Notes: generated from the sequence alone by a model not told the origin. A DNA stretch of 64,000 nt from a virus (IMGVR_UViG_3300025896_000021); one strand, 5' to 3'; numbered from the stretch's first letter, positions 15,940-16,991 are shown. Numbers and translations: made by a program.

Positions 15940-16767
15940 ATGCTTCAAGAAAATCCACTCAAACAATACTTCCGTAGACCAGCATTGTACTTGTCTCTCC
16001 CTAGCAAAGGAATAGGATACGCTCCGGGTATTATAGATTTTCCAGAGAACCATGAATTACCAATTTATCCTATGACCGCGATTGACGAGATTACTAGTCG
16101 TACACCTGATGCATTATATAACGGCTTAGCTGTTGTTGAAATTATCAAAAGCTGTGTACCTTCTATCAAAAAACCATGGGAACTACTTAACATTGACTTA
16201 GACCCTATCTTAGTTGCAATCAAAATGGCTACAAATGGACAGACTATGGAACTAGAATCCGTATGTCCAAAATGTGAAGAAACTAGCAAGTACGATATCA
16301 ATCTCAGTGGAATATTAGGTAGCTTCAAGCCAGGTGATTATTCATCAGCATTAGAAGTAAACGGATTGAAAGTCAAATTTAGACCCTCTACCTATCAAGA
16401 AGTGAATAAAGCAAGCACCAGTCAGTTTGAAATTCAACGTTTACTCAACTCGTTTGATGGAATTACTGATTCAGACGAAAGAACAAAGAAGACTGCGGAA
16501 GTGATCAAAACAATTAATGAATTGACCATTGATCTAGTTACTAGCGCAATTGAATACATCAAGACTCCAGATAGTACCGTACTAGACAAAGATTTCATTC
16601 GTGAATTCTTAGTTAGCTGTGACAAGAATACTCACAATACTATCAAAGAACGACACATTGAATTGAGAAAGAGTACTGAACTTAAGCCATTAGATGTAAA
16701 GTGTACGCATTGCAGCCATGAGTACACTCAGCAATTCAATATCAATATTTCTGATTTTTTCGCATAA
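15940..16767 (+). CDS. Baseplate hub assembly protein / tail assembly chaperone (T4 gp26-like)
   Basis: NPLKQYFRRP, PMTAIDEI, two CxxC pairs (CPKC, CTHC), ends SDFFA. Confidence 0.8.
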   Translation: MLQENPLKQYFRRPALYLSLPSKGIGYAPGIIDFPENHELPIYPMTAIDEITSRTPDALYNGLAVVEIIKSCVPSIKKPWELLNIDLDPILVAIKMATNGQTMELESVCPKCEETSKYDINLSGILGSFKPGDYSSALEVNGLKVKFRPSTYQEVNKASTSQFEIQRLLNSFDGITDSDERTKKTAEVIKTINELTIDLVTSAIEYIKTPDSTVLDKDFIREFLVSCDKNTHNTIKERHIELRKSTELKPLDVKCTHCSHEYTQQFNINISDFFA

Positions 16768-16800
16768 GGCTTCTTCTCCTTGGTTCCGAGGAGATTAAGC
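16755..16800 (+). promoter_or_regulatory. Putative programmed -1 ribosomal frameshift signal
   Basis: In-frame T TTT TTC heptamer (16755-16761), 7-nt spacer, stem-loop 16769-16800; the -1 frame is open into the next ORF. Confidence 0.7.
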
Positions 16801-16802
16801 AG

Positions 16803-16991
16803 ATGATTGATGACATGGAACAAGAGTGCCACACCATTAAAAATGGAGCACTTAAAATGTCTTGGTATATGCGTGGGGGCGTATCCTATGAGGATGTATT
16901 GAACATGAGTATAGAAGAACGATCATCCATAACTAAGATTATTGAAGATAACTTAGAAACAACAAAGAACACTAAATTGCCTTTCTTCTAA
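16803..16991 (+). CDS. Baseplate hub assembly catalyst-like protein (T4 gp51-like); probably also the C-terminus of a frameshift product
   Basis: WYMRGGVSYEDVLNMSIEER motif; follows the gp26-like gene; frame stays open upstream to the slippery site. Confidence 0.75.
   Translation: MIDDMEQECHTIKNGALKMSWYMRGGVSYEDVLNMSIEERSSITKIIEDNLETTKNTKLPFF

What the first reader, a model, noticed from the sequence alone, without database searches (positions are those of the whole stretch)
16753..16991. Programmed -1 frameshift fusing gp26-like and gp51-like genes (lambda G/GT logic in a T4-like phage)
Seen: the gp26-like ORF ends GAT TTT TTC GCA TAA, giving an in-frame X XXY YYZ heptamer T TTT TTC (16755-16761). 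Seven nt later is the stem-loop GCTT-ct-TCTCCTTG-gttc-CGAGGAGA-tt-AAGC (16769-16800). The -1 frame (FRIRLLLLGSEEIKQ) is stop-free and in frame with ATG 16803. The downstream GAGGAG SD is buried in that hairpin. The pair lies next to the tape measure gene. Established: tail assembly chaperones (lambda gpG/gpGT) are made by such frameshifts. Inference: these 'baseplate hub' genes are G/GT-type chaperones giving a 275-aa and a ~350-aa product; I am not aware of this being standard annotation for T4-superfamily gp26/gp51.
Basis: partly seen in the sequence, partly recalled or inferred. Interest (0 to 1): 0.75.

Follow-up and report, generated by a model that had tools for sequence, protein, structure and literature searches.

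The report
Frameshift in jumbo-phage tail chaperone gene
One tail-assembly gene of this uncultured giant T4-related phage very probably makes a 275-residue and a 350-residue protein because some ribosomes slip back one base on an invariant TTTTTTC; the equivalent T4 pair (gp26/gp51) was named as tail chaperones in a 2022 paper, so this is a well-supported, still unannotated example, not a new principle.

Summary
The gp26-like ORF (15940-16767) ends GAT TTT TTC GCA TAA. T_TTT_TTC (16755-16761) is in the slippery phase. A hairpin (16769-16800) starts 7 nt later. The -1 frame is open from the heptamer to 16991.

Comparative evidence is strong. All 110 distinct homologous genes examined keep the heptamer. 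These comprise 10 cultured jumbo phages and about 100 IMG/VR contigs, down to 22-30% identity. Codon periodicity flips from frame 0 to frame -1 exactly at the heptamer. The 16 residues before the first ATG are conserved as protein. The hairpin is far more stable than synonymous-codon controls.

Frameshifting genomes have one PF12322 gene. T4, and two relatives with a hard-wired in-frame long form, have two (short plus long). The long form is collinear with T4 gp51. The N-terminal domain's three best structural matches are the three solved tail assembly chaperones.

The lambda G/GT logic is supported, with three corrections. The downstream ORF matches only the C-tail of gp51. T4 gene 26 is followed by gene 25. 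The probable tape-measure gene is divergent.

Vladimirov et al. (Virology 2022; I could not read it) already identified gp26/gp51 as T4-like tail chaperones. This scan also noted the same signal in at least 170 other genomes.

The parts
15877..15884 (+). TATAAATA, which matches the T4-type late promoter consensus, 56 nt upstream of the chaperone ORF
   Evidence: Read. A gp55-like late sigma gene lies at 21850-22752. Promoter function is inferred, not tested.
15940..16767 (+). Frame-0 ORF: the short form (275 aa) of a PF12322 (T4 gp26/gp51 family) tail/hub assembly chaperone, with two CxxC pairs
   Evidence: Pfam PF12322 E 5.7e-16 and phrog_150 'baseplate hub' E 4e-19. C109, C112, C255 and C258 are invariant. 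The model of residues 1-150 has pLDDT 89.7. Its top three structural matches are tail assembly chaperones.
16755..16761 (+). Slippery heptamer T_TTT_TTC (P-site UUU, A-site UUC), in phase
   Evidence: Invariant in 110 of 110 distinct homologues. Column entropy is 0 at a third codon position whose neighbouring third positions have 1.0-1.8 bits.
16762..16768 (+). 7-nt spacer that contains the frame-0 stop TAA (16765-16767)
   Evidence: The stop lies 3 nt after the heptamer in 88 of the first 92 loci.
16769..16800 (+). Stimulatory stem-loop: a 4-bp outer and an 8-bp inner helix with a GUUC loop. It sequesters GAGGAG (16788-16793).
   Evidence: MFE -18.1 kcal/mol, z -2.97. Across the family, native -14.1 against -6.1 kcal/mol for synonymous-codon controls, mean z -3.4, Wilcoxon p 2e-14. 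Compensatory changes occur at 7 of 13 pairs in the majority register.
16755..16991 (+). Frame -1 extension of 78 codons plus stop. Joined to codons 1-272 of the ORF, it gives the 350-aa long form.
   Evidence: Alignment A2 has 68% mean column identity, with F1, F2, R3 and L6 invariant. Natural in-frame fusions of 319-357 aa exist. The C-terminal half aligns to the gp51 C-tail.
16803..16991 (+). Mechanical 62-aa ORF (the ATG-started part of the extension). This is what a gene caller would annotate.
   Evidence: phrog_18291, unknown function. An ATG at this position with an SD-like motif occurs in only 5 of 84 homologues.
13087..15864 (-). Divergent 925-aa ORF, a probable tail tape measure protein with a Peptidase_M15-like part (about residues 691-827)
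   Evidence: No family found. The nearest Atlas clusters are tape measure proteins (0.93; a lead only) and M15 peptidases by structure. The RaK2 orthologue is noted as tape-measure-like and the PA5oct orthologue is a virion protein by MS.

Best explanation
The gene at 15940-16991 is the single tail/hub assembly chaperone gene (PF12322, the family of T4 gp26 and gp51) of an uncultured jumbo myophage. Most ribosomes read frame 0 and stop at 16765-16767, giving a 275-aa short form. A minority, paused by the hairpin at 16769-16800 with UUU in the P site and UUC in the A site, slip both tRNA-Phe back one base on U_UUU_UUC. They continue in frame -1 to 16991, giving a 350-aa long form with a 78-residue helical C-terminal domain. 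Both forms are needed: phages without the slip site encode them as two genes (T4 genes 26 and 51; the tandem pair in locus L135). By analogy with lambda gpG/gpGT, and from the chaperone-like fold of the N-terminal domain, the shared body most likely holds the tape measure or hub proteins, and the extension of the rarer long form recruits another tail or hub component. Status of each step: the signal, its conservation and the one-gene/two-gene pattern are shown here. The slip itself, its efficiency and all binding partners are inferred.
For: The heptamer is in phase, and the -1 frame opens exactly at it, in the window and in 110 of 110 distinct homologues. These include PBECO4, RaK2, GAP32, PA5oct, Atu_ph07, Phosso, XacN1, SCTP-2, Vibrio 2.275.O and RsoM2USA. 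Codon usage predicts 13%. The position of highest entropy moves from the third position of frame 0 to that of frame -1 exactly at the heptamer. The first 16 extension residues precede any ATG in the window yet are conserved. The first ATG is scattered between codons 3 and 49. It is absent from the first 30 codons in 30 of 84 loci, and PA5oct has no ATG at all. The hairpin has mean z -3.4 against synonymous-codon controls, with covariation. Natural in-frame fusions occur in many 50%-identity clusters. PF12322 gene counts: one each in PBECO4, RaK2, Atu_ph07, PA5oct and two frameshift-type IMG/VR genomes; two in T4; and two in the in-frame-fusion phages G001 and G002. In those, the second gene ends ...LDINVNSI* at the position of the shift site. 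The long form is collinear with the gp51 family. The long-form model has pLDDT 88.9 and pTM 0.85. The window's residues 1-150 match 3KLU, 2OB9 and 3FGX as ranks 1-3 of 48,161 chains (Z 6.0, 5.8, 5.0; next 3.5), and PMC9603447 calls all three tail assembly chaperones. T4 gp26 and gp51 are listed as hub assembly chaperones (PMC3004832).
Against: There is no protein, reporter or ribosome-profiling evidence for the slip, and its efficiency is unknown. In this window's subgroup an ATG (16803) with GAGGAG 9 nt upstream could also start the last 62 residues independently. The fold matches are weak in absolute terms (Z 5-6, rmsd 3.9-7.4 A), and no Pfam chaperone family matches by sequence. The gene is divergent from the probable tape measure gene and is not flanked by a tube gene, unlike lambda G/T. 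The tape measure identity of the neighbour is itself only a lead. The homology of the extension to the gp51 tail rests on hhalign probabilities of 68-78%.
Confidence: 0.88

Rival explanations
1. There is no frameshift. The downstream ORF is a separate small gene, translated from its own start (ATG 16803 with GAGGAG as Shine-Dalgarno) or by termination-reinitiation coupling. The -1 phase is only the usual by-product of ATGA/TAATG-type overlaps.
For: In the window GAGGAG (16788-16793) lies 9 nt before ATG 16803. Phosso and PBECO4 are annotated with overlapping small ORFs. Gene callers do call small ORFs here.
Against: The SD-plus-ATG arrangement exists in only 5 of 84 homologues. First-ATG positions are scattered, PA5oct has none, and 30 of 84 have none in the first 30 codons. 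Called ORF starts fall at arbitrary profile positions. The residues FFRxRLL upstream of any start are conserved as protein, and periodicity flips at the heptamer. This rival does not explain the invariant heptamer. It does not explain the hairpin, which would bury the SD. It does not explain the natural fusions, nor the one-gene/two-gene pattern.
Confidence: 0.05
2. The same long protein is made, but by transcriptional slippage: RNA polymerase adds one U on the T6 run, so a minority of mRNAs carry the fusion in frame.
For: The product would be identical (...DFFR...). RsoM2USA has a T9 run and XacN1 a T7 run, lengths at which polymerase slippage is known (general knowledge; reviewed in PMC5009743).
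Against: 108 of 110 genes have only six T followed by C, shorter than the runs known to slip efficiently. A conserved hairpin 6-8 nt downstream of an in-phase X_XXY_YYZ is the signature of ribosomal slippage, not polymerase slippage. No RNA reads over the site were available to test this directly.
Confidence: 0.04
3. The frameshift is real, but the two proteins are not lambda-type tape-measure chaperones. They act only in baseplate-hub assembly (as T4 genetics describes gp26 and gp51), with partners such as gp27, gp5 or gp28 homologues. The resemblance to G/GT would then be convergent gene-expression logic.
For: [quoted passage not shown] The protein is twice the size of lambda gpG and carries a zinc ribbon and a long helical hairpin absent from classical chaperones. 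No Pfam chaperone family matches. The gene position differs from lambda.
Against: The T4 hub contains the tape measure gp29, so the two readings overlap. The N-terminal domain's top three structural matches are exactly the solved tail assembly chaperones. A 2022 paper identifies these genes as the T4-like tail assembly chaperones (title and one-sentence paraphrase only). The probable tape measure gene is the immediate neighbour here and in RaK2, PBECO4 and PA5oct.
Confidence: 0.25

Closest known systems
T4 gp26 (208 aa) and gp51 (249 aa): hub assembly chaperones (Leiman et al. 2010, PMC3004832), identified as the tail assembly chaperones of T4-like phages by Vladimirov, Gautam and Davidson, Virology 2022;566:9-15 (known to me only through its title and PMC10885494)
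   Same: Same Pfam family, PF12322. A short form ends at the FF motif: T4 gp26 ends ...EFFELL. The long form carries a C-terminal tail collinear with the window's extension. Both are late genes next to hub and tape-measure genes.
   Different: T4 encodes the two forms as separate, divergently transcribed paralogous genes without a slippery site. This phage has one gene and makes the long form by a -1 slip. The bodies are longer here (272 against about 200 aa), and so is the extension (78 against about 48 aa).
Lambda gpG/gpGT and the conserved -1 frameshift of tail assembly chaperone genes in long-tailed phages (Xu, Hendrix, Duda 2004, from my knowledge; reviewed in PMC5009743, which says 'except T4')
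   Same: There is an X_XXY_YYZ heptamer a few codons before the stop of the first ORF. Short and long products share the N-terminal part. The N-terminal domain has a chaperone-type fold. A tape-measure-like gene is adjacent. In T4 the proteins are reported to be assembly factors, with gp51 absent from the virion.
   Different: The heptamer is U_UUU_UUC rather than G_GGA_AAG. A strong conserved hairpin is present. The protein is about twice as large, with a zinc ribbon. The gene is divergent from the tape measure gene, not between the tube and tape measure genes. There is no sequence-family membership.
Natural in-frame long form plus tandem short paralogue in related uncultured jumbo phages (L135: 343-1395 and 1414-2265; also L100, L101, P0001, P0002)
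   Same: Same clade as the window: both paralogues fall inside the starred 25-row clade that holds it. Same body and same extension. The junction CEYFRVRLL corresponds to DFFRIRLL.
   Different: The heptamer is lost (YF instead of FF) and the long form is hard-wired. A second gene supplies the short form, ending at the shift-site position. This duplication is separate from the T4 26/51 split.

Membership tests
PF12322 T4_baseplate (T4 gp26/gp51 family) | Match to the Pfam model above its gathering score | tested here: met
   59.3 bits against a cut-off of 24.5, E 5.7e-16, residues 63-274. T4 genes 26 and 51 both match the same model.
PF12322 T4_baseplate (T4 gp26/gp51 family) | Two conserved cysteine pairs (split zinc ribbon) | tested here: met
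   C109, C112, C255 and C258 are invariant in 14 sequences at 28-83% identity. Metal binding itself was not tested.
T4 gp51-type long form (PF12322 + PF28602) | C-terminal tail domain after the PF12322 body | tested here: inconclusive
   PF28602 is precomputed on T4 gp51 homologues but is not in the local Pfam copy. hhalign of the extension profile against the gp51 family hits the gp51 C-terminus (E 4.9e-5, probability 68%). The full-length comparison is collinear (E 1.9e-5, probability 78%). A single-sequence comparison failed.
Programmed -1 ribosomal frameshift cassette | X_XXY_YYZ heptamer in the frame-0 phase, conserved beyond coding need | tested here: met
   110 of 110 distinct homologues against 13% expected; none of 24 other FF dipeptides uses TTT TTC; entropy 0 at the X position.
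Programmed -1 ribosomal frameshift cassette | Downstream RNA structure 5-9 nt after the heptamer | tested here: met
   7-nt spacer in the window. Family mean z -3.4 against synonymous-codon controls, with 83% below -2. 74% of cells are paired against 41-56% in slid controls, with compensatory changes at 7 pairs. RNAalifold found no single consensus because the register shifts between subgroups.
Programmed -1 ribosomal frameshift cassette | -1 frame open from the heptamer and under protein-coding selection before any start codon | tested here: met
Programmed -1 ribosomal frameshift cassette | Trans-frame protein actually made | not testable with these tools
   No proteomic or reporter data were at hand. 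The one metatranscriptome contig found does not reach the site.
Lambda G/GT-type tail assembly chaperone | Tail-assembly-chaperone fold of the shared N-terminal part | tested here: met
   The window's residues 1-150 (pLDDT 89.7) were compared with 48,161 chains; only 15 reached Z >= 2. Ranks 1-3 are 3KLU (Z 6.0, 89 aligned), 2OB9, the HK97 chaperone (Z 5.8, 88 aligned), and 3FGX (Z 5.0, 84 aligned). Rank 4 has Z 3.5. PMC9603447 names all three as tail assembly chaperones. Caveat: absolute Z is below 8 and rmsd is 3.9-7.4 A. Foldseek found nothing.
Lambda G/GT-type tail assembly chaperone | Sequence membership in a Pfam tail-assembly-chaperone family | tested here: not met
   Only PF12322 matched at E <= 0.01. 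The PDB sequence search found no chaperone.
Lambda G/GT-type tail assembly chaperone | Gene lies between the tail tube and tape measure genes on the same strand | tested here: not met
   The gene is divergent from the probable tape measure ORF. Its neighbours are portal, protease, a resolvase-like gene, gp46/47 and gp55 homologues.
Lambda G/GT-type tail assembly chaperone | Short form binds the tape measure, the extension binds the tube protein, and both are absent from virions | not testable with these tools
   Not tested; no complex prediction was run. For T4, gp51 is reported as required but absent from the particle (PMC3004832).

The most novel reading that the evidence does not exclude
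The -1 frameshift is the ancestral way of making the short/long chaperone pair throughout the PF12322 family. The two-gene arrangement arose repeatedly by tandem duplication followed by loss of the slip site in one copy and of the extension in the other. That would have happened once in the lineage of T4 (genes 26 and 51) and independently inside this jumbo-phage clade (L135). T4-type phages would then be a derived variant of the tail-chaperone frameshift rule rather than an exception, and the short:long ratio set by the slip would be the selected quantity.
Probability: 0.5. Interest if true: 0.55.

Novelty: new member of a known kind. Interest (0 to 1): 0.45.

Why it matters
About a hundred cultured jumbo phage genomes, and hundreds of metagenomic ones, annotate this locus as 'baseplate hub' plus a small hypothetical ORF, or plus nothing. 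Examples include 121Q/PBECO4, RaK2, GAP32, PA5oct, Atu_ph07 and XacN1. They therefore miss a 350-aa protein that is probably essential for tail assembly. The frameshift ties the T4 gp26/gp51 pair, long described as hub assembly factors of unclear role, to the general short/long chaperone logic of long-tailed phages. The one-gene/two-gene comparison is a natural experiment showing that both forms are needed. The site is also a clean, strongly conserved U_UUU_UUC-plus-hairpin cassette that could be used to study bacterial -1 frameshifting on tRNA-Phe.

Tried and rejected
- RNAalifold on the 74-sequence junction alignment gave no consensus structure, because the helix register shifts between subgroups. 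I replaced it with synonymous-codon controls and a fixed-register pair count.
- BLASTP of the 78-aa extension against T4 gp51, and hhalign against the single gp51 sequence, gave only insignificant N-terminal hits. Family profiles were needed.
- Foldseek against the PDB found nothing for either model.
- PDB sequence searches with two profiles found nothing.
- The whole long-form model in the wide structural search was dominated by helical-hairpin matches.
- The 925-aa neighbour has no Pfam, PHROG or NCBIfam family and no BLAST similarity to T4 gp29.
- blastn of the locus against cultured phages found no match.
A search with P0069 returned only frameshift-type loci.
- Sequencing runs: the single metatranscriptome contig covers 16477-16706 only. 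DNA contigs that cross the T run show no insertion or deletion. Neither bears on slippage.
- The AU test of whether the L135 long and short genes are sisters did not finish.
- No complex prediction was run. The partners are open and a negative result would be uninformative.

Full report
**What is in the sequence**

The + strand ORF 15940-16767 (275 aa) ends GAT TTT TTC GCA TAA. T_TTT_TTC at 16755-16761 is in X_XXY_YYZ phase. The -1 frame is closed by TGA at 16752-16754. It then stays open for 78 codons (FFRIRLLLLGSEEIKQM...) to TAA at 16989-16991, and it contains the mechanical 62-aa ORF that starts at ATG 16803.

Its MFE is -18.1 kcal/mol, z -2.97 against dinucleotide shuffles. GAGGAG (16788-16793) sits in its 3' arm. 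The predicted products are 275 aa and 272+78 = 350 aa.

**What the genes are**

The ORF matches Pfam PF12322 'T4_baseplate' (E 5.7e-16) and phrog_150 'baseplate hub'. The small ORF matches only phrog_18291, of unknown function.

The window is a fragment of an 81-kb IMG/VR record, probably from fresh water. The phage is a jumbo myophage whose nearest cultured relatives, at about 30% identity, are Phosso, Atu_ph07, PA5oct, 121Q/PBECO4, RaK2, GAP32, XacN1 and similar phages.

Neighbours on the minus strand are:
- a gp21-like protease and a gp20-like portal;
- a 925-aa ORF directly divergent from the chaperone gene;
- further downstream of the chaperone gene, a resolvase-like gene and gp46, gp47 and gp55 homologues.

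The 925-aa protein has no family. Its nearest language-model clusters are tape measure proteins (0.93, a lead only). The RaK2 record notes tape-measure similarity. The PA5oct orthologue is a virion protein by MS. TATAAATA at 15877-15884 matches the T4 late promoter consensus.

**Conservation of the signal**

I collected 127 homologous loci holding 110 distinct ORF sequences. They come from 10 cultured phages and IMG/VR contigs, at 22-83% identity to the window or to one another.

- All 110 carry NNT TTT TTC (108) or NNT TTT TTT (2) in phase, 9-36 nt before the stop. In all of them the -1 frame is open from there into a homologous extension.
- Codon usage in the same genes predicts this encoding in 13% of sequences.
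- The 24 other FF dipeptides in these genes are encoded TTT TTT, TTC TTC or TTC TTT, and never TTT TTC.
- Column entropy is zero for all seven bases. That includes the X position, a frame-0 third position whose neighbours have 1.0-1.8 bits.
- The position of maximal entropy moves from the third position of frame 0 to the third position of frame -1 exactly at the heptamer.

**The junction is read as protein without a start codon**

The extension alignment (74 sequences, no gaps) has 68% mean column identity. F1, F2, R3 and L6 are invariant. In the window these residues lie before any ATG, GTG or TTG.

Across 84 non-redundant loci the first ATG falls anywhere from codon 3 to codon 49. Thirty loci have none in the first 30 codons, and PA5oct has none at all. 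Only five, the window's own subgroup, combine an ATG before codon 25 with an SD-like motif. Gene callers start the small ORF at arbitrary profile positions: 1, 4, 7, 10, 17, 21, 35 and 39.

**RNA structure**

Single-sequence folds place a hairpin starting 6-8 nt after the heptamer. The controls kept the protein and resampled synonymous codons. Against them, native structures average -14.1 against -6.1 kcal/mol, with mean z -3.4, 83% below -2, and Wilcoxon p 2e-14.

In the majority register, 74% of cells pair against 41-56% when the partner is slid, and compensatory changes occur at 7 of 13 pairs. The window's subgroup uses a register shifted by 1-3 nt, which is why RNAalifold returned nothing.

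**Natural fusions and gene counts**

A profile of the extension finds 428 representative proteins. About 25 of the best 150 clusters are single ORFs of 319-351 aa in which the extension follows a PF12322 body in frame. Their junction reads ...LDxSxxFRxKLI..EEI, with the first F replaced.

Two IMG/VR genomes with such a fusion (junction CEYFRVRLL, no heptamer) each hold two adjacent PF12322 genes. One is a 350-aa long form. The other is a 272-aa short paralogue ending ...LDINVNSI*, exactly at the position of the shift site.

The copy numbers fit this pattern:
- Complete frameshift-type genomes hold one PF12322 gene: PBECO4, RaK2, Atu_ph07, PA5oct and a 100%-complete IMG/VR genome.
- T4 holds two.

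In a tree, both L135 paralogues fall inside the starred clade of frameshift-type sequences that includes the window, far from T4 26/51. That duplication therefore looks independent of T4's. The AU test did not finish.

**Relation to T4**

In T4, gene 26 (208 aa, ending ...EFFELL, codons TTC TTT, no slippery site) is followed by gene 25, and gene 51 is divergent. T4 gp51 itself matches PF12322 over residues 1-201. Its homologues also carry PF28602, which is absent from the local Pfam copy.

The extension profile hits the C-terminus of a gp51 family profile (E 4.9e-5, probability 68%). The natural-fusion family is collinear with gp51 from end to end (E 1.9e-5, probability 78%). So the short form corresponds to gp26 and the long form to gp51.

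**Function**

The AF2 model of a natural long form is confident throughout, extension included (pLDDT 88.9, pTM 0.85). BFVD matches are gp26/gp51-type 'baseplate hub' proteins of many myoviruses.

The window's own residues 1-150 (pLDDT 89.7) were compared with 48,161 PDB representatives. Only 15 reached Z >= 2. Ranks 1-3 are 3KLU, 2OB9 and 3FGX (Z 6.0, 5.8, 5.0), and rank 4 has Z 3.5. PMC9603447 describes all three as phage tail assembly chaperones. The absolute scores are modest, so I treat the fold as chaperone-like, not as proven homology.

T4 gp26 and gp51 are listed as hub assembly chaperones, and gp51 is required but absent from particles (PMC3004832). The lambda model, in which the shared part binds the tape measure and the extension recruits the tube, is from PMC5009743. 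Its transfer here is inference.

**Novelty**

PMC5009743 states that G-T frameshifting is conserved among long-tailed phages 'except T4'. PMC10885494 cites Vladimirov, Gautam and Davidson (Virology 2022). It says that some T4-like phages make the short and long chaperone forms from two genes rather than by frameshifting. I could not read that paper, so I do not know whether it reports the frameshift in distant relatives.

None of the 14 GenBank records I opened annotates a joined CDS. My other searches found no paper reporting the slip. Earlier notes of this scan describe the same signal in at least 170 other genomes.

I therefore file it as a new, very well supported member of a known kind.

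Noticed in passing
L135:343-2265 (IMG/VR contig of 260 kb; also L100, L101, L134): A tandem pair of PF12322 genes in a close relative. The first is a 350-aa hard-wired long form without a slippery site. It is followed 18 nt later by a 272-aa short form that stops at the shift-site position. 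This is a duplication separate from T4 26/51.
   Followed up: partly
window 15877-15884: TATAAATA, the T4-type late promoter consensus, lies 56 nt upstream of the chaperone ORF in the 75-nt divergent intergenic region. A gp55-like late sigma gene is at 21850-22752.
   Followed up: no
window 13087-15864 (minus strand): The 925-aa probable tape measure protein has a part (about residues 691-827) that resembles Peptidase_M15 domains in the Atlas structure search (TM 0.64 by the target). This suggests a cell-wall hydrolase module inside the tape measure.
   Followed up: no
L099:1768-1780 (RsoM2USA) and L096:1780-1786 (XacN1): Two cultured relatives have longer T runs at the site (T9 in RsoM2USA, T_TTT_TTT in XacN1). 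Polymerase slippage could contribute there.
   Followed up: no
I did not examine it.
   Followed up: no
T4 gp51 homologues P0154-P0245: They carry a precomputed Pfam domain, PF28602, after PF12322. It is missing from the local Pfam copy and is not recorded on the jumbo-phage in-frame fusions P0001 and P0002, although profile comparison aligns the two tails.
   Followed up: partly
L011, L021, L089, L102-L131: Where the residue before FF is Asn, a second in-phase heptamer A_AAT_TTT directly precedes T_TTT_TTC (AAATTTTTTC). This gives two overlapping slip sites.
   Followed up: no
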